DNA of 64,000 bases from Gemmatimonadota bacterium (GCA_028873825.1 JAPPNM010000177.1:4212-68211), one strand, 5' to 3'; positions 6,503 to 24,758 are shown, numbered from the stretch's first letter. Notes: a model not told the origin generated them from the letters alone. Translations and numbers: made by a program.

Positions 6503-6539
6503 GAGCCCGCGAGATGCGGACACCTTCCGCCAAACCCGC

Positions 6540-10016: not shown

Positions 10017-10855
10017 GGAACTCGATCTCTTCCACGCCTCCGCGCAGGGTGCGAGCCGGCGCGGTCAGGACCATGCCGACCGAACTCTGGACCATCCCGT
10101 CGGCAACGGTGAACGAGATCGACATGGAGGCGTTCGACTCGTTCACCCGGGCGCGGAGCGGGCACCCGGAGGGCGGCACGCGACCAGGAACCGACGAGGA
10201 TCTACGCGACGCCTCGGTGTGTGTGGAAGTGGACGGCATTCTGCGCCCGACCTTCTACGGTCTGACGGTCTTCGGCAGAGGGCCGCAACGGTATTCTGGA
10301 ACCCTCAGCCTGTTCGTTCAGTGCGCCCGGTATGCGGGGCTCGATCGCGCCGCCAGGCCGATCAGCGTGGGGGAGGCCAAGGGGAGGCTCGAGGACCAGA
10401 TCGACAGGGCGATGGGGTGGTTCCGCAGCCTCGGGCGCCGGGAGGAGTACCACGGCATCCTTCGCGAGGACATACCGCTCATGCCGGAGTGGGTCCTCCG
10501 CGAGGCCCTGGTGAATGCCGTCGTCCACCGCGACTACGCGGAGCGCGGATCGAAGATCCTCCTGGAGGTCTTCAGCGACCGCATCGAGGTCTCCAGTCCG
10601 GGAACTCTGCCACACGACATCACGGTCGCGCAGGCGATCGGGGGCGGTGCCCCGCAGCCACGCAACGAGATGATGGCCAACGCGATGGTCGTGCAGGGGC
10701 GGATGCGGGGGAGGGGGAGGGGATGGCCGCTGATGCGGAAGGAGATGCGCGAGTTCAACGGGACGGAGCCCGAACTCATCAACGAGGTGGCAGGGAGATA
10801 TGTGCGGGTGAGGTTCCTGACGCCATTGGGAAAGGAAGCCGGGAGCAGCCGATGA
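10013..10855 (+). CDS. COG2865-family protein lacking the AlbA_2 N-domain (HATPase_c_4-like core only)
   Basis: The GTG at 10013 overlaps the brxC stop (GTGA). Contains the motif LREALVNAVVHRDY. Colinear with the C-terminal half of the 23172 gene: RPTFYGLTVFG vs RPTLYGLLAFG, and GRGRGWPLM vs KRGRGWLLM. The true start is uncertain. Confidence 0.6.
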   Translation: MRNSISSTPPRRVRAGAVRTMPTELWTIPSATVNEIDMEAFDSFTRARSGHPEGGTRPGTDEDLRDASVCVEVDGILRPTFYGLTVFGRGPQRYSGTLSLFVQCARYAGLDRAARPISVGEAKGRLEDQIDRAMGWFRSLGRREEYHGILREDIPLMPEWVLREALVNAVVHRDYAERGSKILLEVFSDRIEVSSPGTLPHDITVAQAIGGGAPQPRNEMMANAMVVQGRMRGRGRGWPLMRKEMREFNGTEPELINEVAGRYVRVRFLTPLGKEAGSSR

Positions 10856-10950
10856 GCGATCAGTCAGCCAACGAACACGGCAGTCCGGTGACATTCCGGT
10901 TCTCGAACATCGGCGCGCAGCCCTTCCGAGGTCCCTTGGGGAGCACATAG
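10852..10950 (+). pseudogene. 32-codon stub resembling the N-terminus of the following ATPase
   Basis: MSDQSANEHGSPVTFRFSNIGAQPF... compared with ...ASAVTFRFANLGPVREA of the 10952 gene. ATGA overlap with the preceding gene. TAG at 10948-10950. Confidence 0.45.
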
Positions 10951-10951
10951 A

Positions 10952-12412
10952 ATGAGTCGCCGAAGACAGGCAGGGCCCGCGAACTCGCAGTCCGCCGTCC
11001 CGGACGCGAGCGCCGTGACCTTCCGTTTCGCCAACCTGGGACCGGTCAGGGAGGCGTCCCTCCGCCCCGGTCGGCTGACCGTCGTCGCGGGACGCAACAA
11101 CACCGGGAAAACCTACATCGCGCACATGCTCTTCGGGTTTCTGCAGGCCTGGCGGCAGTGGCCCGGCGCGCTGGACACGATTCTGGAGCACCCGCGGGTC
11201 TTTCCCGACGTCCTCGCGGCCGCCGAGTCGCTGTTCGAGCGTGGCCGCGCGGTGATTCCGCTGGGCGACGCCTCGATCTTCGAACAGAGGCGGCTGCTCG
11301 CTGGCGAGCTTGGACGGGCCTTCTCGGAGCGGAACATGTCAGGGGTCATGGGATCGCGCGGGAACCGCTTCAAGGGCGCGACCCTGTCCCTTGCCGTCGA
11401 CGAGCGGGAGTTGCCGCCGGTGTTCTCGAACGCGCGCGTCCGCTTCGACGACGCCACGCTGGACGTGGGACGGGTCGGGAACAACGCGGTGATCTCGATC
11501 GACGAGGCGGAACGCGACGACCCCGATTTCGCGGCGCTGCCCGACTGGACGGCGACCGCCTACTGCTTCTTCCTCCTCCACGACCTGCTGCCTCCCCCCG
11601 TCGCACTGTCGGCGGACCGCGTCGGCATTTCCCTGTTCGCCGAGGATCTCGACTTCATGAAGGACCGGCTCGTGGATCTCCTGGTCGAGAGGGTGAACAA
11701 CGCCGGCGCCCAACCCGACCGCCCCTTCCTCGTAGTCGGCGACATCCCTGGCCGGTACGCCCTTCCCGTCCTCGAGAACATCGACTCCACGCGGCGGATG
11801 TCCACGCTGCCCCGTCGTGGCGATCTCGTCTCCGGCCAAGCGATTGCGGACGACATCAAGCGGATGACGGGGGGGTATTTCAGTCACGCCCGGGATCCGA
11901 TTCGGTTCATATCGCAGAAGCGCGACGGGAAGTTCAATGTCCCGCTTCGCCTGGCCTCGTCGTCGGCCCGGGCAATGGCCGACCTCTACTTCTTCGCCAG
12001 GTACGCCTCGGTCGGCAGGGAGTTCCTGATCATAGACACTCCGGAGAGCCACCTCGACACCGAGAACCAGGTGACTCTCGCCCGTGTGCTGGCGGGGCTG
12101 GTCCGCGAAGGCCTGCACCTGCTGATCACGACCCACAGCCCCTTTCTGCTCAAGGAGCTCAACAACCTGATCATGCTCCACGGAGACTCGCTCAAGAAGC
12201 TCGACCTCGCCCGCTCGCTGGGCTACAATCCCCGCGACGGGCTCGATCCGCGACTGGTTCGGGCCTACGTCGCCGAGGACGGCGGCCTCACGCCGGCCAG
12301 GGTCGACGACTTCGGCATCAGCCTGCCCTTCCTCGACGAGGTCGCGCGGGAAGTCTCCCGTGCGGCGGAACTGCTGGGCGATCTGGTGCGCGAGGAGGCG
12401 CGGGGCGAGTGA
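10952..12412 (+). CDS. ABC/AAA_15-AAA_21-type ATPase (OLD/abortive-infection-like ATPase without a visible nuclease domain)
   Basis: Walker A GRNNTGKTY, signature-like LASSSARAM, Walker B FLIIDTPESHLD, and the H-loop region LITTHSPFLL. Confidence 0.75.
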   Translation: MSRRRQAGPANSQSAVPDASAVTFRFANLGPVREASLRPGRLTVVAGRNNTGKTYIAHMLFGFLQAWRQWPGALDTILEHPRVFPDVLAAAESLFERGRAVIPLGDASIFEQRRLLAGELGRAFSERNMSGVMGSRGNRFKGATLSLAVDERELPPVFSNARVRFDDATLDVGRVGNNAVISIDEAERDDPDFAALPDWTATAYCFFLLHDLLPPPVALSADRVGISLFAEDLDFMKDRLVDLLVERVNNAGAQPDRPFLVVGDIPGRYALPVLENIDSTRRMSTLPRRGDLVSGQAIADDIKRMTGGYFSHARDPIRFISQKRDGKFNVPLRLASSSARAMADLYFFARYASVGREFLIIDTPESHLDTENQVTLARVLAGLVREGLHLLITTHSPFLLKELNNLIMLHGDSLKKLDLARSLGYNPRDGLDPRLVRAYVAEDGGLTPARVDDFGISLPFLDEVAREVSRAAELLGDLVREEARGE

Positions 12413-12432
12413 GGATGATTCCCGAAACGCAA

Positions 12433-12462
12433 GAGCCCCGAGGACGAAACGCCTCGGGGCTC
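12433..12462 (+). terminator. GC-rich hairpin after the ATPase gene
   Basis: GAGCCCCGAGG-ACGAAACG-CCTCGGGGCTC: an 11-bp perfect stem starting 21 nt after the stop. No clear U-tract follows. Confidence 0.45.
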
Positions 12463-12572
12463 CTACCTCAGCGTCTTGCTGCGCCCGAAGGCGTGTGCAG
12501 TAGAGGACGACCTGAGGAATTACACCAGGAGCATCGTCGATTCCCGCTCAGGACGCAACTCGCGGAGCTGCG

Positions 12573-13286
12573 ATGCTATCCATCGGAAGCCTTCGAAGTG
12601 CCCTCTCGGCGGAGCGGCTGGGTGCCTACGTCCGGCCAGGGGACACCGACGAAGTGGACAGCGTGGCCAGGTACCTGTGGAACTTGGCGCTGTGTAGCGC
12701 CCTCCAACCGGCGCTCCACATCCTTGAGGTCACCGTCCGGAACCACCTCTTCAAGGTTTCCAGAAGGATCGTGGATGAGACCACGCTCAGTTTCGACAGG
12801 ATTCCTTGTTGGCTCGACGCACGACCCTCGCTCCTTGCCGAACGCGAGCGTCAGGCCGTCGAGGAGGCGAAGGCCACGATCGAGATGCGGGGGAGTCCGA
12901 TGACCGAGGGACGGCTGGTTTCGGCACTGGGGTTTGGTTTCTGGGTCAGCCTGTGCAAGAGGCCGTACGAGCAGGGGCGCACTGTCGGGCCGCGTCTTTG
13001 GCCCGGACTGGCGAGGAAGGGATTTCCGCATCTGCCCAAACCGATGCGGACACGCAGTCAGGTATTCCACGCCTTGGATCCGCTCCGCGACCTGCGTATC
13101 CGCGTCTCGCACCATCAAGCCGTCCGGGACCGGAGGCTCGCGCGAAGCCATCAGGACATCCTCGACACCATTGCCTGGATCAACCGCGATCTGGCGGCAA
13201 CGCTAGAGGCACACTCGCCGCTCCCGGCAATACTCGGCAAGGGCGTGGCCGGCTTCCGGGCTCAGGCCGAGGCGATCATCAGGTGA
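12573..13286 (+). CDS. Abi_2 (AbiD/AbiF-like) abortive-infection family protein
   Basis: Contains LSAERLGAYV, ARYLWNLALCSALQPALHILEVTVRNHL, GFGFWVSL and DLRIRVSHHQAV. This is the pattern recalled for Pfam Abi_2. Confidence 0.7.
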   Translation: MLSIGSLRSALSAERLGAYVRPGDTDEVDSVARYLWNLALCSALQPALHILEVTVRNHLFKVSRRIVDETTLSFDRIPCWLDARPSLLAERERQAVEEAKATIEMRGSPMTEGRLVSALGFGFWVSLCKRPYEQGRTVGPRLWPGLARKGFPHLPKPMRTRSQVFHALDPLRDLRIRVSHHQAVRDRRLARSHQDILDTIAWINRDLAATLEAHSPLPAILGKGVAGFRAQAEAIIR

Positions 13287-13300
13287 CCTCGGAACCTCGA

Positions 13301-13570
13301 ATGACCAGGGTCACCGCCACGGAACTGCGGGTCGCGATCTCCGACCTCCTCGACCGCGTGGCCCGTCACGGCGAGCGGGTTGTGGTCGAGCGGTATGGGA
13401 AGCGGGTGGCCGCCCTCGTCAGCCCGGAGGACATCGAGCTGCTGGAAGCAATCGAGGACCGCGTGGACATCGAGGCGGCCCTGCAGGCGCTGAGGGAGCC
13501 CGGTCGGCGGAGTTGGCCCAAGGTGAAGGCCGAGTTGGCTCCGCATCGCCCTGAGGGTGAGCGACGATGA
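13301..13570 (+). CDS. Phd/YefM-family antitoxin-like protein (no cognate toxin gene)
   Basis: MTRVTATELRVAISDLLDRVARHGERVVVERYGKRVAALVSPEDIELLEAIED... Starts 14 nt after Abi_2. Its stop overlaps the pglX ATG (ATGA at 13567-13570). Confidence 0.7.
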   Translation: MTRVTATELRVAISDLLDRVARHGERVVVERYGKRVAALVSPEDIELLEAIEDRVDIEAALQALREPGRRSWPKVKAELAPHRPEGERR

Positions 13571-16500
13571 CCCCCCTCCCCCCCGACCTCCGCACCCTCC
13601 TCGCCAGGGCCATCCAGCAGGCCAGGCGCGTCGGGGAATCAGGCGCCCGTCAAGCCCTCCAATCCCTCGCCGTGGACCGCGCCAGGCCTTTCGACTCCAT
13701 GTCGCTCGGCGACAAGTCGCTCCGCAACCGCCTCCGCATGCGCGGCCGCCAAGCTGGCGACCGCCGCGAGCGCCGGACCGGCACGCAGAACCTCGTCCAT
13801 CTCGCCCACGAAGTTGCATACGAGAACTGGCACCGGATGCTCTTCGCCCGGTTCCTGGCCGAAAACGGCCTGCTCCGCGATCCCGAACACGGGGTCGACC
13901 TGTCGCTGGACGACTGCCGGGACCTGGCCGAGGAAGAAGGCACCGACGCCTGGGATTTCGCGGGCCGGTGCGCCGGACACATGCTCCCGGAGATCTTCCG
14001 CGGCGACGATCCGGTGCTCGACCTGTCTCTGCCGCCGGAGACGCGGCAGGAGCTCGAAGGGCTGCTGGACGGGCTGCCCGAGGCCGTGTTCGCGGCCCCC
14101 GACTCGCTGGGCTGGACCTACCAGTTCTGGCAGGCCGAGCGGAAGGAGGAAGTCAACCGGGAGGTCAAGAGCGGCAGGAAGATCGGAGCGGACGAACTCC
14201 CGGCGGTCACCCAGCTCTTCACCGAGACCTACATGGTCCGCTTCCTGCTTCACAACACCATCGGCGCCTGGCGCGCGGGCAGGCTGCTGGCCGACCGCCC
14301 CGACCTGGCCGGGAGTGCCTATGACGAGGAAGAGCTACGGCAGCTCGCACGCCTCGACACCGCCGGCGGCTACGACTTCTCCTACCTGCGCTTCGTGCGC
14401 GGCGTCCGCGAGGAGGACGAGGACGACTCACGCACGGGCCCTTGGCGTCCGGCCGCCGGATCCTTCCCGGACTGGCCCCGCGACGCTTCGGCCCTCCGCG
14501 TGCTCGACCCCTGTTGCGGCAGCGGCCACTTCCTCGTCGAGGCGTTCGAGCTGCTCGTGCGCCTGCGCATGGCCGAGGAGGGCGTGCAGGCCGACGAGGC
14601 AATCCGCCGCGTGCTCGCGGACAACCTCTTCGGCCTGGAGATCGACCCCCGCTGCACACAGATCGCCGCGTTCAACCTGGCTCTCGCGGCGTGGCGTCTG
14701 GCGGGGGAGCCCATCGACCTGCCGCCGCTCAACGTGGCATGCGCGGGACTCGCGCCGAACGCGTCGGAGGCCGAGTGGCGGGAGCTTGCGGAGCGGGCCG
14801 AGGGCGCGACCGGACTGGCCGGGGACCGTGACCTCTTCGGGGAGGACCAATCGCTGGCGAGCGGTTCGCTCAAGGACGAGATGGCCGCGCTGCACAAGCT
14901 GTTCAGACGGGCCCCGGAGCTCGGATCGCTGCTGGACCCGGGTTCCGTGGGACGCGACCTCTTCAGCGCCGACTTCAAGTCCGTCGCGAAGCTGCTCGAC
15001 ATCGCGATTGGGCGGGAGCGGGGGGTCGCGGGACGCGACGAGCGCGCCGTGGCGGCCGCGGGGATGGCCCGGGCCGCGGAGATCCTGCAGGGGCGGTACA
15101 CGCTCGTCGTCACCAACGTGCCGTTCCTGGCGCGGGGGAAGCAGGGGAGCGGGCTGCGCACGTTCGCGGAGGCGCACCACGGCGACGCCAAGGGGGATCT
15201 GGCCACGATGTTCGTGTCGCGGATCTTCGGGTGGCTCGGCAAGGGCGGAACGCAGGCGGTCGTGTCGCCGCAGAACTGGCTGTTCCTGAAGACCTACCGG
15301 AAGCTGCGCGAGAGGTTGTTGAAGGGGCGGACGTGGAATCTGGTGGCCCGGTTGGGTCCCGGTGCCTTCGAGACGGTCTCGGGGGAGGTGGTCAATGTCG
15401 CACTCGATGTCATTTCGGCCGGGCGTCCGGATCGTGACTGGGAGATGGCGGGGGTGGACGTGTCGTCTCCTCGGGGGCAGCGCCAGATCAAGGCTGCCGA
15501 GAAGGGGGAGAGGTTGCGGGGGGCGGCGGGGGTGGTGATGGCGGGGCAGGGGGAGCAGGTGAGAAATCCGGATTCGGCCGTGTTGATGCGGCCGATTGGG
15601 GATCGGGTGTTATTAGGAAACGTGGCTCACGGTCACCAGGGCATCGCATCCGCCGACTATCCTTCCTTTGGCAGACTATTCTGGGAGATTCCAACGGATG
15701 GCGAGACGTGGGTGTTCCAACAGAGCACGGTCAACGATACTACGGATTTCGGGGGACGAGAGCATGTCCTGCACTGGACGGGCGTCGCAGAAGTTGCCGA
15801 ACGACAAGTCGCACCTGGCGGCCGTAAAGCGGTACGTATACGAGGGGGCGGGATTTGGAGCCGTGAAGGCATCGCCGTCTCCCAGATCGGGCAGCTCCCC
15901 GTAACCCGTTACACCGGGGAGAAGTTCGACAACAACACGGCTGCGCTCGGCCCCCTCGCCGAAGACATCCTCCCCGCCGTCTGGTGCTTCTGCTCCTCGC
16001 CTGACTACGCAGCCGCAGTCCGTGAGATCGACCACGCGCTGAAAGTCACTAACGCGACCCTCGTCAAGGTCCCCTTCGACCTTGAACACTGGAAGCAGAT
16101 CGCCGCCGAGCAATATCCGCACGGCCTCCCGGAACCCTACTCCGACGACCCCACGCAGTGGATCTTCCACGGCGACCCGTGCCGTAGCGTCGTGTGGAAC
16201 GAAGAGACCAAACGCACCGACCACGCGCCCCCTCGCATTGACGCCACCGTTCTCCATGTCGCCGTCGCCCGCCTCCTCGGCTACCGCTGGCCCGCCGAAC
16301 TCGACCCCGACATGCGTCTCGCCTCCGAGCAGCGCGATGTCGCCGACGACTGCCGGGCGTTCGACGACTTCGCCGATCCCGACGGCATCGTCTGCCTGCC
16401 CGCCGTCCGTGGGGAACCGCCCGCCGCCGACCGTCTCCGCTCTCTGCTGGCCTCCGCGTACGGGGACGAGTGGTCCGCCGCCACCGAGCGCGCCCTGCTG

Positions 16501-17226
16501 ACGGCCACCAGCCCCAAGCGGCCCAAGTCATTGGAGGACTGGCTCCGCAACCGTTTCTTTCAGGAACACTGCAAGCTCTTCCACAACCGTCCCTTCCTCT
16601 GGCACGTCTGGGATGGCCGCAAGGACGGCTTCCACGCGCTCGTCAACTACCACCGGCTCGCTGGGCCAGAAGGCCAAGGCCGCCGGACCCTGGAATCCCT
16701 CACCTACGCCTACCTCAACGAGTGGATTGAGCGCCAGCGCGCGGAAAGCGAGGAGGGAACACCCGGAGCGGACGGACGCGTAGCGGCCGCACTCGACCTC
16801 CAGCAGCAACTCCAGCGCATCCTCACTGGCGAGCCTCCGTGCGACATCTTCGTGCGCTGGCGACCGCTGCACGGCCAAGCCATCGGCTGGGAGCCCAACA
16901 TCAACGACGGAGTGCGCCTGAACATCCGGCCCTTCATGCGCGCGGAGCTACGCACGGGCGGCCGCGCGGGTGCGGGCCTGCTGCGGTGGAAGCCCAACGT
17001 CAAGTGGGGAAAGGACCGGGGCAAGGAACCTGAGTCACCGAGGCCACGCGACGACTTCCCTTGGTTCTGTCGCTGTCCGGGTGGCGGTGGTGAGGCGGAG
17101 CGGATCGACTTCCGGGCCGCGCTCGACGCCGACTTTGATGGGAATCGCTGGAACAATCTTCACTATTCAGCGTCGTGCAAGAACGCGGCTCGACAACGGT
17201 TAAGTGACCAAGGAACAACATCATGA
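13567..17226 (+). CDS. pglX: BREX adenine-specific DNA methyltransferase PglX
   Basis: 1219 aa. SAM motif I VLDPCCGSGHFLV. Catalytic motif IV-like VVTNVPFLARG. N-terminal ...EVAYENWHRMLFARFLAENGLL. Position between brxC and pglZ. Confidence 0.9.
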   Translation: MTPLPPDLRTLLARAIQQARRVGESGARQALQSLAVDRARPFDSMSLGDKSLRNRLRMRGRQAGDRRERRTGTQNLVHLAHEVAYENWHRMLFARFLAENGLLRDPEHGVDLSLDDCRDLAEEEGTDAWDFAGRCAGHMLPEIFRGDDPVLDLSLPPETRQELEGLLDGLPEAVFAAPDSLGWTYQFWQAERKEEVNREVKSGRKIGADELPAVTQLFTETYMVRFLLHNTIGAWRAGRLLADRPDLAGSAYDEEELRQLARLDTAGGYDFSYLRFVRGVREEDEDDSRTGPWRPAAGSFPDWPRDASALRVLDPCCGSGHFLVEAFELLVRLRMAEEGVQADEAIRRVLADNLFGLEIDPRCTQIAAFNLALAAWRLAGEPIDLPPLNVACAGLAPNASEAEWRELAERAEGATGLAGDRDLFGEDQSLASGSLKDEMAALHKLFRRAPELGSLLDPGSVGRDLFSADFKSVAKLLDIAIGRERGVAGRDERAVAAAGMARAAEILQGRYTLVVTNVPFLARGKQGSGLRTFAEAHHGDAKGDLATMFVSRIFGWLGKGGTQAVVSPQNWLFLKTYRKLRERLLKGRTWNLVARLGPGAFETVSGEVVNVALDVISAGRPDRDWEMAGVDVSSPRGQRQIKAAEKGERLRGAAGVVMAGQGEQVRNPDSAVLMRPIGDRVLLGNVAHGHQGIASADYPSFGRLFWEIPTDGETWVFQQSTVNDTTDFGGREHVLHWTGVAEVAERQVAPGGRKAVRIRGGGIWSREGIAVSQIGQLPVTRYTGEKFDNNTAALGPLAEDILPAVWCFCSSPDYAAAVREIDHALKVTNATLVKVPFDLEHWKQIAAEQYPHGLPEPYSDDPTQWIFHGDPCRSVVWNEETKRTDHAPPRIDATVLHVAVARLLGYRWPAELDPDMRLASEQRDVADDCRAFDDFADPDGIVCLPAVRGEPPAADRLRSLLASAYGDEWSAATERALLTATSPKRPKSLEDWLRNRFFQEHCKLFHNRPFLWHVWDGRKDGFHALVNYHRLAGPEGQGRRTLESLTYAYLNEWIERQRAESEEGTPGADGRVAAALDLQQQLQRILTGEPPCDIFVRWRPLHGQAIGWEPNINDGVRLNIRPFMRAELRTGGRAGAGLLRWKPNVKWGKDRGKEPESPRPRDDFPWFCRCPGGGGEAERIDFRAALDADFDGNRWNNLHYSASCKNAARQRLSDQGTTS

Positions 17227-20200
17227 CCTTTCGAGATCAACGTCATGTCCATCGGATTTGCGAAGCCCTTTGGCGTCGTTCCGGCGCGGGTGCGTCGGTC
17301 ATGGTCGGGAGCGGGTTTAGCCGGAACGCACGTGCGTTGCGCCCAGGCTCGGACTCGTTGCCCATGTTGGCCGAGATCGGGCGGGCCCTATCCGCTGAGC
17401 TGTATCCCAACGCTACCACCAATCAAGAGATACCCCCGGAGCGACTCTTGAGATTGGCGCAGGCATACCAAGCCGAATTCAAACCCACCGGGTTGCACGC
17501 AGCACTCAGGACATTGGTGGCGGACGATGACTTCACGCCAGCCACTGCCCATGAGCGACTCCTTCGACTGCCGTGGGCCGATGTGTTTACCACCAACTGG
17601 GATACACTACTGGAACGTGCAAGCGAGACCGTTAGGGACCGTGTCTACACTATCGTCCGAAGCAAGCACGACATTCCTGGAGGAGCCCGGCCACGCATCA
17701 TCAAACTCCACGGGTCCCTTCCCGATTCCGCCCTCGTCCTAACCGAAGAGGACTATCGAACCTATCCTACCAAGTTCTTGCCCTTTGTGAATACCGTACA
17801 ACAGGCAATGATGGAGACGACATTCGTCCTAATTGGCTTTTCGGGCAATGATCCTAACTTCCTTCATTGGTCAGGTTGGGTTCGTGACCACCTCGATGAA
17901 GCTGCGCTGAACATCTATCTCGCTGGATTACTGAACCTGTCGCGCCCCGAGCGCCAGATGCTCCGAGATCGCAACGTAGTTGCCATCGATCTCGCGTTGC
18001 ACCCACGAGCAGACGAGTGGCCCGATGGCCTTCGTCATGAGTACGCCACAAAGTGGATTCTCTCAGCGCTCGAATGCGGACAACCCTACAACATATCGAA
18101 ATGGCCTACGCCTCGGCCTGCGACATTCTGTTCCGAAGAGGATCCTCTACTCGATCCGATCATCCGAAACGTGTCGGCAGAACCACGCAGGGAACCCTCG
18201 GAGTCGCCACGGGAGATACCTTCGGACGAGCGCTTGATCGCCGTCAAGAAGACTCTTGACATTTGGAAGTACAACCGGGACCTTTTTCCGCGCTGGTTGG
18301 TGGCTCCGGGGCGAGTGCGAAGTGAAGTATGGTATTCCACTGAGCGCTGGATGTCTTTCGTCGTGCAGGAGCTGACGCAATTGGCCGCTCTGGAACGCCT
18401 GACCGCGATTCGCGACATCATCTGGCGGTACGAGCTGACCCTTGAGACAATCCCGGATGAACTTCACGCCGCCGCGGAGGCGGTGCTGAGATCCATCGAC
18501 TGTACAGGGCGGACGGTTGAAGGGATTCGCCCAGATGACGTGGATTGGAGCGCGACTCGTGGGGCGTGGCAGGAGGTGACCCTCGCTCTCTTGACCGCTG
18601 CCAGATACCGACTCGACGGTGCCGCTTTCGAGAAGCACCTCAACGCAGTGCAGCCCATTCTGGACGATGATGTGGAGGCAGCCCATCGTGTGAATCATGA
18701 ACGCTGCCTGTGGGCGCTGTGGGCCTTGGACCATGCGACAGTCGGCGAACGGTTAGATGCATGGAGGACTGACGAAGGCGATTCCGCTTGGGCGATGCGC
18801 AAGAGCGCCCTCCTGAGAGAGATTGGACGCAAGGAGGATGCTGATCGCTTGACTATGCGCGTCGTTGAGCGGATCAGAGCGACTCGAGATGGCCCTGGCG
18901 ATCTTGGTGGTCGGTCACGTGAAGGATGGGCGCTATGGAGTCTGGTCGAGACGTTTGCGTATGATGGCAGCTTTCAAACCCGATGGGATAATGTCCAAGC
19001 ACGATGGGATGAGCTCGCGGTCGTCAAGTGCAATCCGTATCCCGACGTCCGTAACCTCAGCGATCAGTTGTCGACCGATCGGCGCGAAACTCGGGTCCCG
19101 GCTTTCGACCTCGGAATGCGTCCGACAGAGTCGCACACGATGCAGATGGTACGTCCGCCCTCTGCATCGCGGGGCATTCGACTGACCGAGGTCGCGGGTG
19201 TCGCCCCTACGACTGGTGTGCGGACGGTCGCGGGCGGCTTGGTGAAGCGGGCTGCCGAAGCACTGATCTCCGATGATGCCACCCTTGGAATGCGTCAGAT
19301 GATCCGCGTCGCCGAATCGGGCAACGACAAGGCGCTGAGGCGTGTGCTGACCCGTCCACGAGTGGCTGCGCTTACTGCTGCGAGCGCACGAGCACTGTCT
19401 CGCGATGTTCAGATCGCATTGAAGAACTCAGTATCGGATATTCGGACCACCAGAGACGAAACCCGATTCAAAGCGGTGAGGCACACGAGCGTCGCCATGG
19501 AGTCATTGTCACGGCTGGTGCTGCGACTGGAGCCTGGAGCGGCTCTCTCGATCTTTGACCGTGCGCTTGGCCTCTATCGGGACACGTCGGTGATGGAGTG
19601 GATTCAGCTGCACGGATCACTGCGTAACCTGTTGAGGAGAAGTTGGGAGACTCTTGACGACGAACAGCGCACGGAGCGAATACTCGATGTTCTTGAGACG
19701 CCGATCGTCGGGCTCGACGGGTATGCGAGTGCCGGTGATCACTGGCCTGATCCCAGTGAGATCCTGTCGGAGGATCTTTCGCCAGTGCGTTCTGAAGAGA
19801 ATGAGAATCGATGGAACTCAGTGGTGGCCACGTTGATTCGAGGGTCGAGCGCCGAGGGGCAGGTACGTGAACGGGCAGCAGTCAGGCTTGCCAAGATCGC
19901 GTTGTGGGGTCGCCTTGCGAAGACAGAGACGGAGAGAGTCGCTGAGGCTATCTGGGGAGTCGCAGCGGATGAAGAACAAGCGCTTCCAGATGGCACGTCG
20001 CTGCACGACTATGCCTTTATTCTGCTTCCCGAGCCCAAGGTTGGCGTTGGAAGAGCGCGCTTTGGGCGAAAGTGGCTGTCGGGGGATGTTGCCAATGTGC
20101 GGCTTGGCGGCGAGGTCGGCCACAAAGATTCGACTAGGGCAGACGACATTCTGTGGCAGGCGGGCATGTCCGTTGCGTTCGTACGTCGTCACGGGAGAAC

Positions 20201-21050
20201 GTTGGATCTGACCAATGAGGAGAAGGATTATCTGATCGGAGTGATTGATCATTGGTCACGGACTAGGGCTCCCAAGCCTTCGGTAGTGATTCCAGAGTTC
20301 TTTAGAGATTTGCGGACACGATCGATCTGGGATGCGTGCCGTGGGTTGCGGTGGCTTTTGACTGAGATTCGGATTCCCAATGGTCTTGCGGAGAGACTAT
20401 ATGGGCAAGTGCCGGAGTTGATCGATAGCGGGATTTCAGCGTACGGCATCCTTCCGGGCATCGACAATGTAGACGAGGATCTGCGTGAGGACATTGCGTT
20501 GCTTATGTCAACCGGATTGGCATCGGACGATCGCAAGATGGGGGAGAGCGCGATGTGGTCATTGCACTGTTGGTTGCGGTTCGCGTCAGAGTCGGCGCTT
20601 GACTTCGTCGGTCCCCCACAGCACTTGATTCGGGAAATTGGGGTTTCGGTGGCCACGAGGCGGCGAACGGTACTGGGAGAGGCGCTCCACGCGGCGAAGT
20701 GGATCTTTGAAGACGGCAGTGAAGAAGAGCGAGACGCGATCCGCGACTTGGTGCTGAAGGGCTTGGGCTACCTCGCCGAAGAGTTGCGGTACGATCGCGA
20801 GGACCCGCTCGATGAGAAACTCGATGTTCCGCTCGCACGGTGGCGCAGCATCCAAGTGGCGCGAGCGATGGCCGGGCAGGGTTTGGGCGGGCATCCCGTG
20901 GTCAAGCGGTGGTTGCAGTTGGGAATGGATGACCCGCTACCGGAAGTACGACGTGTCGCGAACAGGAGGCGGGAGGGTGATGCGATGGTCGAAGTGGCCG
21001 GTGCAGATGGGCGACATGAGTTCGCCGACGAGGGTGGGGCCGATGCCTAG
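17223..21050 (+). CDS. SIR2_2-domain protein with about 1000-aa helical C-terminal region (DSR-like candidate NADase effector)
   Basis: Contains VMVGSGFS, FTTNWDTLLERA, IIKLHGSL and LIGFSGNDPNFLHW within the first 260 aa. HEAT-like DDPLPEVRRVA near the C-terminus. The ATG overlaps the pglX stop (ATGA). GC is visibly lower than in the flanking genes. Confidence 0.8.
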   Translation: MTFRDQRHVHRICEALWRRSGAGASVMVGSGFSRNARALRPGSDSLPMLAEIGRALSAELYPNATTNQEIPPERLLRLAQAYQAEFKPTGLHAALRTLVADDDFTPATAHERLLRLPWADVFTTNWDTLLERASETVRDRVYTIVRSKHDIPGGARPRIIKLHGSLPDSALVLTEEDYRTYPTKFLPFVNTVQQAMMETTFVLIGFSGNDPNFLHWSGWVRDHLDEAALNIYLAGLLNLSRPERQMLRDRNVVAIDLALHPRADEWPDGLRHEYATKWILSALECGQPYNISKWPTPRPATFCSEEDPLLDPIIRNVSAEPRREPSESPREIPSDERLIAVKKTLDIWKYNRDLFPRWLVAPGRVRSEVWYSTERWMSFVVQELTQLAALERLTAIRDIIWRYELTLETIPDELHAAAEAVLRSIDCTGRTVEGIRPDDVDWSATRGAWQEVTLALLTAARYRLDGAAFEKHLNAVQPILDDDVEAAHRVNHERCLWALWALDHATVGERLDAWRTDEGDSAWAMRKSALLREIGRKEDADRLTMRVVERIRATRDGPGDLGGRSREGWALWSLVETFAYDGSFQTRWDNVQARWDELAVVKCNPYPDVRNLSDQLSTDRRETRVPAFDLGMRPTESHTMQMVRPPSASRGIRLTEVAGVAPTTGVRTVAGGLVKRAAEALISDDATLGMRQMIRVAESGNDKALRRVLTRPRVAALTAASARALSRDVQIALKNSVSDIRTTRDETRFKAVRHTSVAMESLSRLVLRLEPGAALSIFDRALGLYRDTSVMEWIQLHGSLRNLLRRSWETLDDEQRTERILDVLETPIVGLDGYASAGDHWPDPSEILSEDLSPVRSEENENRWNSVVATLIRGSSAEGQVRERAAVRLAKIALWGRLAKTETERVAEAIWGVAADEEQALPDGTSLHDYAFILLPEPKVGVGRARFGRKWLSGDVANVRLGGEVGHKDSTRADDILWQAGMSVAFVRRHGRTLDLTNEEKDYLIGVIDHWSRTRAPKPSVVIPEFFRDLRTRSIWDACRGLRWLLTEIRIPNGLAERLYGQVPELIDSGISAYGILPGIDNVDEDLREDIALLMSTGLASDDRKMGESAMWSLHCWLRFASESALDFVGPPQHLIREIGVSVATRRRTVLGEALHAAKWIFEDGSEEERDAIRDLVLKGLGYLAEELRYDREDPLDEKLDVPLARWRSIQVARAMAGQGLGGHPVVKRWLQLGMDDPLPEVRRVANRRREGDAMVEVAGADGRHEFADEGGADA

Positions 21051-22812
21051 ATCCCGCCGCGATGTTGAAGGACTTCTGGACCGGCTCGACGAGTTTCCCG
21101 CCCACGACCTCGAGTTCCAGAACCTCGACTTCAAGGAATGGGATCCCTGCCGCCTGAACCAATCGGTGCGATCCGCCGTGACCTCCGCCGTCTGCATGGC
21201 CAACGGCGGCGGTGGAACAGTGGTCTTCGGCGTCGCCGACAAGGTGGTAGGCCGCGACCGCGCGATCGTCGGCGTCCCGCCTGAAGTGTCGGTCAACCGC
21301 CTCAAGCTGGCGGTTCACGACGGAACGGATCCGAAGCTCACGCCGGTCTTCGAGGAACTCATGGTACCGGAAGGGACTGGACGCCTGATCCTCATGCGCG
21401 TTCATCCCGGGATCCCCCCCTACACGGATACCGCCGGTCGCGGCACGGTTCGGGTCGGCACGGACTGCAAGCCGCTGACCGGAACGATGAGGAGAAAGCT
21501 CCTCGAAGAGTCCGGAGAGAACGACTACACGGCGGTGACCATCGACGCTCCTCTTCCCGGGTTGATATCCCCCGCGGCCATGGAGACGCTTCGCGAGGCC
21601 GCGAAGTTGGACAGGGCGCCCCCTGACCTGCTTCGGCTTGGCGACACCGATCTGCTGCGCGCGATCGGCGTGATCCGCGACGGCAGGCCCACGCGGGCGG
21701 CGGTCCTTCTCGCCGGCTCGCCCGACGCCGTCCGCGACCATGTCCCCAGCTTCCTTTGGACCCACCTCCGAATGTCGTCGGACACCGAGTACTCCGACCG
21801 CGCCGACGGCCACCACGCAATCCCGGTCGCCCTGTCCCGCCTCCTCGACCGGATCATGGCGAACAACCTGATCGAGACGGTGCGTCGCGGAGTCTACCAC
21901 TTCGAGTACCGAACGTACCCGAAGACGGCTCTTCGAGAGGCCCTTCTCAACGCACTGTGCCACGGTGCCTTTCGTGTCGCCGGCCCGAGGATCGTGAGGC
22001 AGTATGCCGACCGAATCGAAATCTCCAACCCCGGTGGTCTGATCGGCGACATCACGCCGGACAACATCCTCCACCACGCGCCTGCGGCTCGGAATCCGTG
22101 CCTCGTCCAGGCCCTGGTGCGTCTCCGCCTTGTGAATCGAAGCAAACTCGGAATGGAGCGGATGTACTCTGCGCTTCTCATTGAGGGGAAGCCGCCGCCC
22201 GAGATCGAGGAGGTCGGCGGATCCGTCCGGTTGACGTTTAGGGCTTCCTCCGTTTCACCCCGGTTCCGCGGCTTCGTGGGCGAGGAGGCGCGAAAGGAGA
22301 TCGTGCTCGGCGCGGACCAGCTGCTCCTCCTGCGACACATGGTCCGCCACGGCGAGATCGACAATCCCACCGCATCTCGGCTCTGCCAGAGGCGGGAGTC
22401 CGCCGTCGCCGCAGTGCTGGCCCGGATGGAATCGGAGCTGGGATACGTGGAACACAGAGGCAGCGGCCCGGGCGCGTACTGGATGCTGTCGCCCGAAGCC
22501 CATGCCCGCTTGGCGCCCGCGAACGACTTTCGCGAGGGACCGAAGGTCGTCTTCGGAGCGGACGGAACGGTGACCCACCGGGATCCGCACGGAGCCTGGG
22601 ACGGTCTCAAGGCGCGGGTGATCCGGGTGATCAGGCGATGCGCCGATACCGGTGCCGATCCCCTCGTCAACGCCGATGTCCGCCGGATCACCGGCCTGGA
22701 TCGCCATCAGGTCCGCCGCATGATCCATGAGCTCCGGGACGACGGCCTCGTCGTGATCGAGGGCCACGGGCGTGCCGCCAGATACCTCTACGCCAGCCCC
22801 GGGAGCGAATAG
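21043..22812 (+). CDS. COG2865/Schlafen-like protein (AlbA_2-like N-domain + HATPase_c_4 + C-terminal wHTH-like regions)
   Basis: The ATG at 21043 lies 8 nt before the SIR2 stop. Contains DLEFQNLDFKEWD and LREALLNALCHGAF. C-terminal ...RHQVRRMIHELRDDGLVVIEG. The ORF track start at 20812 is judged too far upstream. Confidence 0.65.
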   Translation: MPRSRRDVEGLLDRLDEFPAHDLEFQNLDFKEWDPCRLNQSVRSAVTSAVCMANGGGGTVVFGVADKVVGRDRAIVGVPPEVSVNRLKLAVHDGTDPKLTPVFEELMVPEGTGRLILMRVHPGIPPYTDTAGRGTVRVGTDCKPLTGTMRRKLLEESGENDYTAVTIDAPLPGLISPAAMETLREAAKLDRAPPDLLRLGDTDLLRAIGVIRDGRPTRAAVLLAGSPDAVRDHVPSFLWTHLRMSSDTEYSDRADGHHAIPVALSRLLDRIMANNLIETVRRGVYHFEYRTYPKTALREALLNALCHGAFRVAGPRIVRQYADRIEISNPGGLIGDITPDNILHHAPAARNPCLVQALVRLRLVNRSKLGMERMYSALLIEGKPPPEIEEVGGSVRLTFRASSVSPRFRGFVGEEARKEIVLGADQLLLLRHMVRHGEIDNPTASRLCQRRESAVAAVLARMESELGYVEHRGSGPGAYWMLSPEAHARLAPANDFREGPKVVFGADGTVTHRDPHGAWDGLKARVIRVIRRCADTGADPLVNADVRRITGLDRHQVRRMIHELRDDGLVVIEGHGRAARYLYASPGSE

Positions 22813-22885
22813 ATCGTGAGCGAGAATGTGATTGAGGACGGTCGAGGCCGGAATGAAGACGGGTTCCCCGTGAGCTTTTCTCAGC

Positions 22886-23160: not shown

Positions 23161-23171
23161 CGCGCCGGAAG

Positions 23172-24353
23172 ATGAACCTGAACGAATTTCGCGAGAGAAT
23201 CCGAGCCGGCGAGAGCGAGCGGCTGGAGTTCAAGCGCGAGGCGCGCGACCTCCGGGCGGTCGGCCGGGCCGTCTGCGCGTTCGCCAACTCGTCCGGCGGC
23301 ACGGTCGTCATTGGCGTGGACGACCGGGGCGGAATCGTGGGCGTGGACGAAGATCCGGACGGGCTGCAGGAACGCCTGAGCGGCTTTCTCCACACCGGAC
23401 TGAGTTCCCCCGTTTCGGCGAGGTGCGGCTGTCTGGAGACTCCCGCCGGCTGGGTGCACTGGATCAGGGTCCCCCACCAGCAGCGCGGGTTCGAGCCCAT
23501 GCGCCACAGGGGCCGCTACTGGGTGCGCCGCGGCAGGAGCAGCGTCGAGCCGTCGCCCTCCGGGCTGGAGGAGCTCCTCCAAGTCTTCGGGTTCGTAATG
23601 ACGGAGGACCAAGTGATCCCGTCGGCGGAGGAACATCACATCGACCTGGCCGTGTTCACCGCCCACCTGCGGGCCATGGGACTCAAGCCCGACGAGGGGC
23701 CCCAGCCTTCCATGACCGACGACCTTCGCAATCGCGGAGTGACCGCGGAACTGGACGGGGTCATGCGTCCGACCCTCTACGGCCTGCTAGCGTTCGGCAA
23801 GCATCCGCAGCAATACCCCCAGATGGGGAACTTCGTCGTGCGTTGCGCCGCCTACCTGGGCGACCACCAGGGATCGGAGGTCATTTCGGCCAGCGAGAGC
23901 CGGGGACGTCTGGAGGAGCAGGTGAATCGCGCGCTGGAGTGGGTCCGATCCTTCGGCTGGCGCGAGGAATACCGGGGTCTCTACCGCCGCAACGTGCCGC
24001 TGGTCCCCGAGGACGCCCTCCGCGAGGCGCTGGTGAACGCGGTCGTGCACCGGGACTACTCGATCACCGGATCGCCGGTGTCGCTGGACGTGCTGCGGGA
24101 CCGGGTTCTGGTGACCAGTCCGGGGGCTCTTCCGAATCACATGACCGAGGAGAGCGTGCGCGCGGGCGGGCGGCCCCGGTCCCGCAACGAGCTCATGGTC
24201 AACGCGATGGTCGTGGCCAGGTTGATGGAGAAGCGCGGGAGGGGATGGCTGCTGATGAGTGAGGCGATGGCGGAGTTCGATCTGCCCGAGCCGGAGATCG
24301 AGAACGATCCCGCGGGACGCACAGTGCGGGTGACGCTGAGGCGCGTGCCATGA
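23172..24353 (+). CDS. COG2865/Schlafen-like protein (AlbA_2 + HATPase_c_4)
   Basis: 393 aa. Contains GESERLEFKREA, AFANSSGGTVVIGVDD and LREALVNAVVHRDY. Confidence 0.75.
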   Translation: MNLNEFRERIRAGESERLEFKREARDLRAVGRAVCAFANSSGGTVVIGVDDRGGIVGVDEDPDGLQERLSGFLHTGLSSPVSARCGCLETPAGWVHWIRVPHQQRGFEPMRHRGRYWVRRGRSSVEPSPSGLEELLQVFGFVMTEDQVIPSAEEHHIDLAVFTAHLRAMGLKPDEGPQPSMTDDLRNRGVTAELDGVMRPTLYGLLAFGKHPQQYPQMGNFVVRCAAYLGDHQGSEVISASESRGRLEEQVNRALEWVRSFGWREEYRGLYRRNVPLVPEDALREALVNAVVHRDYSITGSPVSLDVLRDRVLVTSPGALPNHMTEESVRAGGRPRSRNELMVNAMVVARLMEKRGRGWLLMSEAMAEFDLPEPEIENDPAGRTVRVTLRRVP

Positions 24354-24360
24354 CACCTCG

Positions 24361-24393
24361 GGACGGCTTCCACGCGCTCGTCAACCACCACCG
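24361..24393 (+). repeat. 33-nt copy (32/33 identical) of an internal pglX segment (16623-16655)
   Basis: GGACGGCTTCCACGCGCTCGTCAAC(T/C)ACCACCG, compared base by base. Lies 8 nt after the stop of the 23172 gene. Confidence 0.85.
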
Positions 24394-24422
24394 ACACGCG
24401 GCACGTCGCCCGGAGAAATCCG

Positions 24423-24758
24423 ATGCCCAAGACTAGAGCCGAGATACTCGACGTGCTGGAACGCCTCGACGAGTGCGTGGCGGACGATCTCGAGGGCCAG
24501 CATCTCGACTTCAAGCAGTGGGATCAACGCAGCGACCGGGGCGCGCTGCGACAAATTGCTTCATTTCCTTCCCCGATCCGCAAGACGGGTGCGCATCGTG
24601 GGGCGCGAGACCGGACACGCGTTACCTGGCAGGCTCGTGATGGTGGAGCGGGCACCTGGGACCGCGGGAAATGGGACAAATCGGGACGGGTCGGGGCGTT
24701 CCTTGTCCCAATTCGCGCCGGATCGTTGGAAATGTATCAGCAGCGGATGATCCCATGA
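24423..24758 (+). pseudogene. stub ORF: the first 36 or so codons resemble the N-terminus of the 21043 COG2865 gene, the rest is unrelated
   Basis: ILDVLERLDECVADDLEGQHLDFKQWD compared with LLDRLDEFPAHDLEFQNLDFKEWD. The ORF stop overlaps the ATG of the next gene (ATGA at 24755-24758). Confidence 0.4.

What the first reader, a model, noticed from the sequence alone, without database searches (positions are those of the whole stretch)
12573..22812. Five-gene translationally coupled chain: Abi_2 - Phd - PglX - SIR2 - COG2865
After the hairpin at 12433-12462 and an AT-richer spacer, five ORFs follow with a 14-nt gap, a 4-nt overlap, a 4-nt overlap and an 8-nt overlap. No internal terminator-like structure was seen.

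This implies co-expression and fixed stoichiometry of a modification enzyme (PglX) with two classic cell-suicide-type domains (Abi_2, SIR2), a small antitoxin-like protein and a Schlafen-like ATP-binding/wHTH protein. That combination looks like a composite system rather than a random neighbourhood.
Basis: inference. Interest (0 to 1): 0.65.

Follow-up and report, generated by a model that had tools for sequence, protein, structure and literature searches.

The report
BREX operon packed with swappable defence genes

Summary
The five ORFs and their junctions (14-nt gap, ATGA, ATGA, 8-nt overlap) are exactly as described. The interpretation as one composite system does not hold.

The genes lie inside a complete type 1 BREX locus: brxA-brxB-brxC ... 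pglX ... pglZ-brxL. Only pglX is a BREX core gene. The other four are separate cargo.

1. An Abi_2/AbiF-like HEPN gene arrived as a discrete 0.88-kb cassette (12409-13292). It carries a ~105-nt structured RNA (12422-12526) found upstream of homologues in 30 loci, with covariation.
2. Phd is an orphan antitoxin. A relative (L005) still has the ParE toxin.
3. The SIR2 gene is a DSR2-like NADase with foreign codon composition. It has no BREX gene nearby in about 75 of 79 loci. Near-identical strains carry a different allele cut by IS elements, or another gene.
4. COG2865 is the Schlafen-kinase-wHTH protein already reported as BREX-associated.

The full five-gene order was found only on the window's own contig. 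Co-transcription is plausible. Fixed stoichiometry and functional interdependence are unsupported.

This is a new member of a known kind, defence genes embedded in BREX. The Gemmatimonadota AbiF-type RNA, absent from Rfam, is a modestly novel by-product.

The parts
12409..13292 (+). Discrete inserted cassette: structured RNA plus Abi_2/AbiF-like gene
   Evidence: blastn: 88% identity to the standalone locus L159 5835-6720. Homology to BREX relatives L034 and L004 stops at 12413-12415 and resumes at 13291-13296.
12422..12526 (+). Conserved two-hairpin structured RNA upstream of the Abi_2-like gene. Candidate AbiF-type RNA antitoxin or 5' regulatory leader.
   Evidence: Covariance model R1 scores 128.5 bits here and hits once directly upstream of every homologous gene tested. 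94% of cells are paired, 17 of 32 pairs show compensatory changes, and 0 of 500 shuffles reach this. Independent MFE folds of divergent copies share the architecture. No Rfam match, including abiF RF03085.
12573..13286 (+). Abi_2/AbiF-like HEPN protein (237 aa), with atypical RIRVSHH and W->R substitutions
   Evidence: PADLOC PD-T4-5 8e-10. Distant homologues carry PF07751. AlphaFold model pLDDT 87.8; the only sensible PDB match is PbAbiF 8VZ6, TM 0.54. It is the only one of 111 sequences in which the motif was found that lacks the N of RNRxxHH, and the only one with R in place of the W of WD.
13301..13570 (+). Orphan Phd/YefM antitoxin (89 aa)
   Evidence: Pfam PF02604 2.2e-12. The L005 orthologue is followed, with a 4-nt overlap, by a ParE_toxin gene (3.5e-14). 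L002 keeps a toxin stub. No toxin is present in the window.
13567..17226 (+). PglX (BrxX) BREX methyltransferase. The only BREX core gene among the five.
   Evidence: PADLOC PglX E=0 over the full length. Orthologues in 77 loci are flanked by brxABC and pglZ/brxL.
17223..21050 (+). DSR2-like SIR2 NADase (1275 aa), horizontally acquired cargo
   Evidence: PADLOC Dsr2 6e-146, residues 8-1200. The conserved SIR2 motifs TTNWD and KLHGS are retained. GC3 is 0.64 against 0.81-0.91 in neighbouring genes. About 75 of 79 homologous loci have no BREX gene nearby.
21043..22812 (+). COG2865a: Schlafen/AlbA_2 + HATPase_c_4 + wHTH protein (589 aa)
   Evidence: Pfam SLFN_AlbA_2 1.7e-13, HATPase_c_4 1.1e-19, MarR_2 8.7e-4. 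Paralogues occur in about 30 of 77 BREX loci. This class is reported as BREX-associated in PMC12839542.
22813..23171 (.). AT-rich non-coding spacer that ends the chain
   Evidence: GC is about 0.51 at all three codon positions in all frames, against a genomic GC3 of 0.8-0.9.
5166..10016 (+). Context: brxA (5166-5951), brxB (5948-6502), brxC (6540-10016)
   Evidence: PADLOC BrxA 1.7e-88, BrxB 3.7e-71, BrxC E=0.
10013..12412 (+). Context: other cargo in the brxC|pglX slot. HATPase_c_4-only fragment (10013-10855) and PD-T4-4_A-like AAA_15/21 ATPase (10952-12412).
   Evidence: Pfam and PADLOC.
23172..26440 (+). Context: COG2865b (23172-24353); a 5' fragment of another COG2865 gene within a 24358-24752 insertion; COG2865c (about 24755-26440)
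   Evidence: Pfam and PADLOC; blastn and tblastn against L004 and L002.
26573..31107 (+). Context: pglZ (26573-29047; the true start is probably about 57 codons later) and brxL (29044-31107)
   Evidence: PADLOC PglZ 2.5e-257, BrxL 3.4e-277.

Best explanation
The five genes are the centre of a type 1 BREX operon (brxA-brxB-brxC ... pglX ... pglZ-brxL) in a sponge-associated Gemmatimonadota (Longimicrobiales-like) genome. BREX loci of this clade have two cargo slots, brxC|pglX and pglX|pglZ. Unrelated self-contained defence or TA modules are inserted and exchanged there, in the operon's orientation.

The brxC|pglX slot holds:
- a HATPase fragment;
- a PD-T4-4_A-like ATPase;
- an AbiF-type cassette (structured RNA plus HEPN RNase gene);
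- an orphan Phd left from a Phd-ParE module.

The pglX|pglZ slot holds:
- a DSR2-like NADase;
- three Schlafen-GHKL-wHTH (COG2865) paralogues.

Shown here: gene identities, cassette borders, turnover between strains, and the conserved RNA.

Inferred:
- The cargo rides on BREX transcription. The tight or overlapping junctions are simply how genes are packed in this operon.
- Each module acts on its own as an abortive-infection layer behind BREX. DSR2 would deplete NAD+ on sensing a phage protein. Schlafen would cleave tRNA. The AbiF-like RNase would be held in check by its RNA.
- There is no fixed-stoichiometry complex.
For: - All six BREX core genes are present and co-oriented.
- Across the 77 PglX loci, brxC->pglX is compact (<300 nt) in 23 of 69 scorable loci and pglX->pglZ in 14 of 63. 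The rest carry 0.6-9.6 kb of varied insertions.
- In close relatives the position right after pglX holds DSR2 (window, L002-L006, L090), a 1330-aa TPR-PIN protein (L034, L001), DRT1a (L011) or COG2865 (L008).
- BREX-embedded DSR2s fall in two subclades mixed with standalone ones.
- DSR2 GC3 is 0.64 against 0.81-0.91 in neighbours, and DSR2 genes are lower in GC than their flanks in nearly all hosts.
- Strains 97-98% identical from brxC (L197) or brxA (L195) to mid-pglX carry different cargo. L195 has a 50%-identical DSR2 allele truncated beside two transposase genes. L197 has a 379-aa M78-like protein in place of DSR2 and COG2865a.
- The Abi_2-like cassette has exact borders and occurs alone elsewhere.
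- The Phd-ParE pair is intact in L005.
[quoted passage not shown] Schlafen-kinase-wHTH proteins are linked to BREX and related systems in >=1017 taxa (PMC12839542). DSR2 works as a single gene (PMC10981675). AbiF works as an RNA-protein TA (PMC12373285).
Against: - There are no expression data, so co-transcription and autonomy are both inferred.
- pglX->DSR2 adjacency recurs in at least 7 Gemmatimonadota loci, three of them with the same ATGA overlap. This could reflect more than convenience.
- The Abi_2-like copy carries unique substitutions in its most conserved motif, and Phd lacks a toxin, so some 'modules' may be inactive relics rather than working layers.
- The promoter and terminator scans are tuned to sigma-70 and U-tract signals and are weak evidence in a 69% GC genome.
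Confidence: 0.8

Rival explanations
1. One reading: the five proteins form one composite system whose translational coupling enforces fixed stoichiometry between a modification enzyme and suicide effectors.
For: Junctions are tight or overlapping. All genes are defence or TA related. Abi_2-like-Phd-pglX is kept in three to four near-identical strain contigs.
Against: - The five-gene order was found only on the window's own contig.
- Each non-BREX gene occurs without the others.
- DSR2 and COG2865a are replaced or IS-disrupted in strains about 97-98% identical upstream.
- The same 4-nt overlaps join core BREX genes.
- The Phd->pglX overlap is absent in L034, L004, L005 and L002.
Confidence: 0.05
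2. Functional, non-obligate coupling: the large effector placed just 3' of pglX (DSR2, TPR-PIN or DRT1a) and the Schlafen paralogues are BREX 'backup effectors'. They would be wired to BREX status, for example triggered when an anti-BREX protein disables PglX, rather than being mere hitch-hikers.
For: A single large abortive-infection-type effector recurs in exactly this position in at least 10 related loci. The ATGA overlap with pglX is seen in the window, L004 and L005. The backup-effector hypothesis is set out in PMC12839542. The embedded-system rationale is given in 10.1101/2024.01.29.577857.
Against: Effectors of unrelated mechanism occupy the slot interchangeably, and many BREX loci have none. 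DSR2 homologues are overwhelmingly standalone. Nothing here shows signalling between the systems.
Confidence: 0.2
3. The orphan Phd has been co-opted as a DNA-binding regulator of the pglX-proximal transcription unit, or as a buffer of PglX toxicity. That would explain its retention and its start/stop overlap with pglX.
For: Phd is retained without a toxin in the window, L004 and L034, and with identical sequence in five contigs. Phd/YefM antitoxins are autorepressors (established knowledge). PglX toxicity in the Pgl system is described in PMC4365076 (title and abstract only).
Against: Phd occurs only in one shallow clade of BREX loci. Its distance to pglX varies from an overlap to 1.7 kb. An intact ParE partner in L005 and a toxin stub in L002 point to simple TA decay.
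Confidence: 0.12
4. The element at 12422-12526 is only an intrinsic terminator or insulator for the upstream ATPase gene followed by a promoter, not a functional RNA partner of the Abi_2-like protein.
For: It starts 10 nt after the ATPase stop codon and begins with a strong hairpin (-30.9 kcal/mol, z = -3.95).
Against: - It travels with the Abi_2-like gene, not with the ATPase.
- In standalone loci the upstream neighbour is divergently transcribed.
- No U-tract follows the hairpin.
- A second, multi-stem hairpin covaries as well.
- The Abi_2 family precedent is an RNA antitoxin or structured leader.
Confidence: 0.1

Closest known systems
Type 1 BREX with embedded defence genes (e.g. BrxU in the pEFER BREX; 'guilt-by-embedding', Payne et al. 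preprint 10.1101/2024.01.29.577857; auxiliary and backup effectors in PMC12839542)
   Same: All six core genes are in canonical order. Co-oriented foreign defence genes are nested between the core genes. Schlafen-kinase-wHTH proteins are among them.
   Different: The cargo set is unusually dense, with about 9 genes or fragments. It includes a DSR2-like sirtuin, which is not mentioned in PMC12839542 (0 occurrences of 'SIR2'). The preprint's main text also has no occurrence of 'Dsr2' or 'SIR2'.
AbiF / Abi_2 HEPN toxin with cis-encoded RNA antitoxin (C. difficile AbiFCd-RCd22, PMC12373285; PbAbiF-AbiFr, PDB 8VZ6)
   Same: A HEPN R-x4-H protein of about 240 aa. A conserved structured RNA of about 100 nt with two hairpins lies immediately upstream on the same strand. 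The conserved block starts about 150 nt before the ATG, against 168 nt from TSS to ATG for RCd22. The best PDB fold match is PbAbiF.
   Different: There is no Pfam Abi_2 hit and no match to the Rfam abiF motif RF03085. The clade is Gemmatimonadota-specific. The window's copy has N->I and W->R changes at otherwise invariant positions. Antitoxin function is untested.
DSR2 (defence-associated sirtuin 2, B. subtilis; PDB 8K98 and others)
   Same: An N-terminal SIR2 domain with the conserved TTNWD and KLHG motifs, a long helical C-terminal region, a single-gene arrangement in most genomes, and a full-length match to the PADLOC Dsr2 model.
   Different: It is 1275 aa against 1005 aa. Pairwise similarity to B. 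subtilis DSR2 is limited to the SIR2 core (residues 107-222, E 6e-7). Here it is embedded in BREX and overlaps the pglX stop codon.
Phd/YefM-ParE type II toxin-antitoxin
   Same: A Phd domain. The orthologue in L005 is followed by a ParE toxin gene with a 4-nt overlap.
   Different: The toxin gene is absent in the window, and Phd's stop overlaps the pglX start instead.

Membership tests
Type 1 BREX | brxA, brxB, brxC, pglX, pglZ and brxL present, co-oriented, in canonical order | tested here: met
   PADLOC: BrxA 1.7e-88, BrxB 3.7e-71, BrxC 0, PglX 0, PglZ 2.5e-257, BrxL 3.4e-277. The same order is seen in most of the 77 related loci.
Type 1 BREX | Site-specific N6-adenine methylation and exclusion of unmethylated phage DNA | not testable with these tools
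   Needs methylome data and phage assays.
   The five-gene order was found only on the window's own contig. L004 lacks the Abi_2-like gene and has TIR+8xMP between Phd and pglX. L195 and L197 differ downstream of pglX.
Abi_2 / AbiD / AbiF HEPN (PF07751) | Match to the Pfam Abi_2 model | tested here: not met
   No Pfam family at E<=1.
Abi_2 / AbiD / AbiF HEPN (PF07751) | Homology chain to bona fide Abi_2 proteins | tested here: met
   Full-length homologues at 40-42% identity carry PF07751 (P0096, P0109, P0115, P0118, P0119). PADLOC PD-T4-5 8e-10.
Abi_2 / AbiD / AbiF HEPN (PF07751) | HEPN R-x4-6-H catalytic motif | tested here: met
   R175 and H180 are invariant. However, the window has RIRVSHH, where at least 105 of the 111 sequences in which the motif was found have RN..HH.
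Abi_2 / AbiD / AbiF HEPN (PF07751) | AbiF-like fold | tested here: inconclusive
   The model has pLDDT 87.8. The top PDB hit is 8VZ6 PbAbiF with probability 0.91 and TMq 0.54, but Foldseek E is 0.54. All other hits have TM <= 0.23.
AbiF-type RNA-protein toxin-antitoxin | Conserved structured ncRNA encoded immediately upstream on the same strand | tested here: met
   Present in 30 loci, with covariation. It is not the Rfam abiF motif.
AbiF-type RNA-protein toxin-antitoxin | The RNA binds and neutralises the toxin | not testable with these tools
   Needs co-expression toxicity assays and RNA-protein binding.
Phd/YefM type II TA | Phd antitoxin domain | tested here: met
   PF02604 2.2e-12.
Phd/YefM type II TA | Adjacent cognate toxin gene | tested here: not met
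   pglX follows directly. ParE is present only in the L005 orthologous locus, with a stub in L002.
DSR2 | Full-length similarity to the DSR2 family model, with an N-terminal SIR2 domain | tested here: met
   PADLOC Dsr2 6.3e-146, residues 8-1200 against model positions 12-1171 of 1222. SIR2_2 4e-18.
DSR2 | SIR2 catalytic Asn and His retained | tested here: met
   The TTNWD and KLHGS motifs align to the equivalent ThsA motifs. Residue roles are taken from established SIR2 knowledge.
DSR2 | C-terminal sensor homologous to B. subtilis DSR2, activated by the phage tail tube protein | tested here: inconclusive
   phmmer against PDB DSR2 chains aligns only residues 107-222. Activation is not testable here.
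Prokaryotic Schlafen (AlbA_2)-GHKL-wHTH, COG2865 | SLFN_AlbA_2 + HATPase_c_4 + C-terminal wHTH | tested here: met
   1.7e-13, 1.1e-19, and MarR_2 8.7e-4 (the last below the Pfam cut-off).

The most novel reading that the evidence does not exclude
The position immediately 3' of pglX may be a dedicated 'backup effector' socket. In this reading a large abortive-infection protein (DSR2, TPR-PIN or DRT1a) is exchanged together with the PglX specificity region and is functionally tied to BREX, for example released when PglX is blocked by a phage anti-BREX protein. Translational coupling to pglX would then set its dose. Separately, the Gemmatimonadota Abi_2-like genes may define a new AbiF-type RNA-antitoxin family with an RNA unrelated in sequence to the Rfam abiF motif.
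Probability: 0.15. Interest if true: 0.65.

Novelty: new member of a known kind. Interest (0 to 1): 0.35.

Why it matters
This locus gives a clear natural example of how BREX operons serve as landing pads for other immune genes.
- The insertion borders are base-exact.
- Cargo turns over between strains that are about 97-98% identical upstream.
- Cassette decay is visible in three forms: an orphan antitoxin, an IS-cut sirtuin and gene fragments.

It cautions against reading tight or overlapping gene junctions as evidence of a protein complex.

It also yields two leads that could be tested. One is an unannotated structured RNA tied to Abi_2-like HEPN genes in Gemmatimonadota. The other is a recurrent pglX-DSR2 junction, which could be used to test the 'backup effector' idea for BREX.

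Tried and rejected
- Rfam, both gathering and permissive thresholds, found nothing, including abiF RF03085.
- PDB sequence searches with the Abi_2-like protein and with its profile gave only noise. Only the fold search pointed to PbAbiF.
- ORF 22816-23175 looked as if it extended the coupled chain to COG2865b through an ATGA overlap. It was rejected as non-coding on codon-position GC.
- The alternative start at 20812 for COG2865a was rejected on homologue alignment.
- RNAalifold on a plain MAFFT alignment recovered only 14 pairs because the hairpin arms were out of register. The structure was therefore set by hand, modelled and realigned. That alignment leans towards the model, so independent single-sequence folds were used as a check.
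- There are no tRNA genes in the window to mark an island boundary.

Full report
**Observation**

The five ORFs are real and are joined as described:
- 12573-13286, then a 14-nt gap.
- 13301-13570, overlapping the next gene by ATGA.
- 13567-17226, overlapping the next gene by ATGA.
- 17223-21050, overlapping the next gene by 8 nt (ATGCCTAG).
- 21043-22812.

Four of the five show the strong third-position GC bias of real genes in this 69% GC genome (GC3 0.77-0.84). The SIR2 gene has GC3 of only 0.64. A consensus terminator scan finds no more sites than shuffled sequence does, 9 against 9.3.

Two qualifications apply. First, the same 4-nt overlaps join brxA/brxB, brxC/the next gene and pglZ/brxL in this locus. 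They are the local packing style and not a mark of these five genes. Second, an apparent sixth coupled ORF (22816-23175, ATGA overlap with the next gene) has flat 51% GC at every codon position and is non-coding. The chain therefore ends at 22812, followed by a 360-nt AT-rich spacer.

**What surrounds the chain**

PADLOC and Pfam identify a complete type 1 BREX system on the same strand. In order along the strand:
- BrxA 5166-5951, BrxB 5948-6502, BrxC 6540-10016.
- A HATPase_c_4-only fragment (10013-10855).
- A PD-T4-4_A-like AAA_15/21 ATPase (10952-12412).
- The five genes of the finding.
- Two more Schlafen/AlbA_2-HATPase_c_4 paralogues (23172-24353 and about 24755-26440).
- PglZ 26573-29047 and BrxL 29044-31107.

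Only pglX among the five is a BREX core gene.

**Comparative test of gene order**

A PglX search returned 77 loci, mostly Gemmatimonadota, Acidobacteriota, Planctomycetota, Verrucomicrobiota and cyanobacteria. Mapping the window's proteins onto them shows the conserved frame brxA-brxB-brxC-pglX-pglZ-brxL.
- brxC->pglX is compact (<300 nt) in 23 of 69 scorable loci.
- pglX->pglZ is compact in 14 of 63.
- The remaining loci carry 0.6-9.6 kb of heterogeneous insertions at those two positions.

No locus other than the window's own contig has all five genes in order.
- The most syntenic locus, L004, has the ATPase, then AAA_15/21+DUF3226, Phd, ThsB_TIR+8xMP, pglX, DSR2 and three COG2865 genes. It lacks the Abi_2-like gene.
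- Contigs carrying an identical Phd protein are 97-98% identical in DNA from brxC (L197) or brxA (L195) to mid-pglX, and all keep Abi_2-like-Phd-pglX. They differ downstream.
  - L195 has a DSR2-like allele only 50% identical in protein, truncated at 251 aa next to two transposase genes.
  - L197 has a 379-aa M78-peptidase-like protein in place of DSR2 and COG2865a.
- In both strains, homology also drops inside the 3' half of pglX (about 15400-16100).

**Gene 1 and the 'hairpin plus spacer'**

The 237-aa protein has no Pfam hit even at E<=1. Several lines nevertheless place it near Abi_2/AbiF:
- It matches PADLOC PD-T4-5 at 8e-10.
- It has about 150 homologues, of which 120 were listed. Five of those, at about 40% identity, carry PF07751 Abi_2.
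- The family conserves an E..RN motif and the HEPN motif RNRxxHH.
- An AlphaFold model (pLDDT 87.8) has PbAbiF bound to its ncRNA (8VZ6) as its only sensible PDB match: probability 0.91 and TM 0.54, though Foldseek E is 0.54.

Close homologues (80-85% identity) sit alone in unrelated neighbourhoods.

blastn defines a discrete cassette. Window 12409-13292 matches the standalone locus L159 at 88% identity. Homology to BREX relatives ends at 12413-12415 and resumes at 13291-13296.

It recurs upstream of homologues that share only 39-56% protein identity.
- Single-sequence MFE folds of eleven divergent copies give the same two-hairpin architecture.
- A covariance model built from eight close copies hits once, on the coding strand, directly upstream of every homologous gene searched. 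It hits nowhere in BREX loci that lack the gene.
- On the model-based alignment, 94% of cells are paired and 17 of 32 pairs show compensatory double changes. None of 500 shuffles reaches this, and slid controls pair at only 34-47%. The alignment is fitted to the model, which is why the independent folds matter.
- Rfam has no match, including the abiF motif RF03085.

Published work shows that Abi_2/AbiF HEPN toxins are neutralised by a cis-encoded upstream ncRNA. Examples are RCd22, with its TSS 168 nt before the ATG (PMC12373285), and PbAbiF-AbiFr (review PMC12737573). AbiD1 has a structured regulatory leader.

I therefore read 12422-12526 as the RNA partner or leader of an AbiF-type module, not as the terminator of the upstream gene. 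This is an inference by analogy.

The window's copy is the only one of the 111 sequences in which the motif was found to have RIRVSHH (N->I). It is also the only one with R in place of the W of the following WD. It may be attenuated or decaying.

**Gene 2**

Phd is a genuine PhdYeFM domain, but it has no toxin.
- In L005 the orthologue is followed, with a 4-nt overlap, by a ParE_toxin gene (3.5e-14).
- L002 retains only the first residues of that toxin.
- L004, L034 and the window have none.
- Phd occurs only in this shallow clade of BREX loci. Its distance to pglX ranges from an overlap (window) to 1.7 kb.

It is most simply an orphaned antitoxin. A regulatory co-option is possible but unsupported.

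**Gene 4**

The SIR2 protein matches the PADLOC Dsr2 model over its full length (6e-146). It keeps the conserved SIR2 motifs TTNWD and KLHGS. Pairwise similarity to the solved B. subtilis DSR2 is limited to the SIR2 core.

Of 79 homologous loci, many of them MAGs of sponge-associated lineages, only four have pglX next door. The rest show no BREX gene within 8 kb.
- A neighbour-joining tree puts the BREX-embedded copies in two subclades interleaved with standalone ones.
- DSR2-like genes are lower in GC than their flanks in nearly every host.
- In the closest BREX relatives the same position holds a 1330-aa TPR-PIN protein (L034, L001), DRT1a (L011) or COG2865 directly (L008).

This is a swappable slot. 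DSR2 is known to act as a single-gene NAD+-depleting abortive-infection system.

**Gene 5**

COG2865a has SLFN_AlbA_2, HATPase_c_4 and a weak wHTH. Paralogues occur in about 30 of the 77 BREX loci across phyla. Exactly this architecture was recently reported as a BREX-linked 'backup' RNase in >=1017 taxa (PMC12839542). Prokaryotic Schlafens have been shown to be phage-triggered tRNases. The window carries three full copies, a HATPase-only fragment and a 5' gene fragment (24423-24522). These are signs of recombination among paralogues.

**Synthesis**

The neighbourhood is non-random in the known sense: defence genes nest inside BREX in the operon's orientation (10.1101/2024.01.29.577857). It is not a five-component system.
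- Co-transcription is plausible.
- Fixed stoichiometry and interdependence are not supported.

One question remains open and mildly interesting. A large abortive-infection effector recurs immediately after pglX, sometimes translationally coupled to it. It is unclear whether this reflects functional wiring to BREX. I give that about 0.15-0.2.

I rate the finding a new member of a known kind, with interest 0.35. Most of that interest comes from the previously unannotated Abi_2-associated RNA and from the clean record of cargo turnover between strains.

Noticed in passing
window 12422-12526: A conserved two-hairpin structured RNA lies upstream of the Abi_2-like gene. It is absent from Rfam, is present in all 30 homologous Gemmatimonadota loci examined, and shows covariation.
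   Followed up: yes
window 13095-13130 (protein residues 175-186): The window's Abi_2-like protein is the only one of the 111 sequences in which the motif was found to have RIRVSHH instead of RNRxxHH. It is also the only one with R instead of W in the following WD motif. It may be an attenuated or decaying toxin.
   Followed up: partly
window 15383-16144: In strains 97-98% identical upstream (L195, L197), nucleotide homology drops inside the 3' half of pglX and is lower (84-88%) to its end. This suggests that a variable part of PglX, possibly its specificity region, and the downstream cargo are exchanged together.
   Followed up: partly
L195 12905-17204: A near-identical strain carries a different DSR2-like allele, 50% identical at the protein level. 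It is truncated at 251 aa next to two DDE transposase genes.
   Followed up: partly
window 24358-24752: A ~395-nt insertion lies between COG2865b and COG2865c, which are adjacent in L004. It carries the first ~45 codons of a COG2865a-type gene, so it is a recombination scar. The real COG2865c start is near 24755, not 24671.
   Followed up: partly
window 10013-10855: A 280-aa protein with only the HATPase_c_4 half of a COG2865 protein (no AlbA_2 domain) overlaps the brxC stop by 4 nt. It is absent from L004.
   Followed up: no
window 31147-33107 (minus strand): A convergent pair lies just after brxL: a HEC-01A/mad3-like AAA_21 ATPase (31794-33107) and a weakly mad4-like protein (31147-31917). 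This may be another defence module at the island edge.
   Followed up: no
L002 10001-11259: The first ~40 codons of pglX are duplicated on either side of an inserted 332-aa gene of unknown family. This looks like an insertion within the 5' end of pglX with the target duplicated.
   Followed up: no
L004 8874-9916; L005 9013-9944; L008 9354-9995: A ThsB-type TIR gene plus an '8xMP' octameric membrane protein gene form a recurring two-gene cassette just upstream of pglX in L004 and L005. In L008, 8xMP was the only gene checked at that position.
   Followed up: no
L129 and loci L078-L156 generally: The DSR2-like family (~1250 aa) is widespread in MAGs of many lineages, including Dehalococcoidia, Latescibacterota, Entotheonella and a Nitrosopumilaceae archaeon. 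It is almost always lower in GC than its flanks.
   Followed up: no
L164 2696-2758: A second, partial copy of the Abi_2-associated RNA element (37.8 bits) lies about 500 nt downstream of the Abi_2-like gene.
   Followed up: no
window 26573-26740: The pglZ ORF as listed is probably over-extended at its 5' end. The PADLOC alignment starts at residue 58, and a promoter-like site lies at 26458-26486 in the AT-rich gap before it.
   Followed up: no
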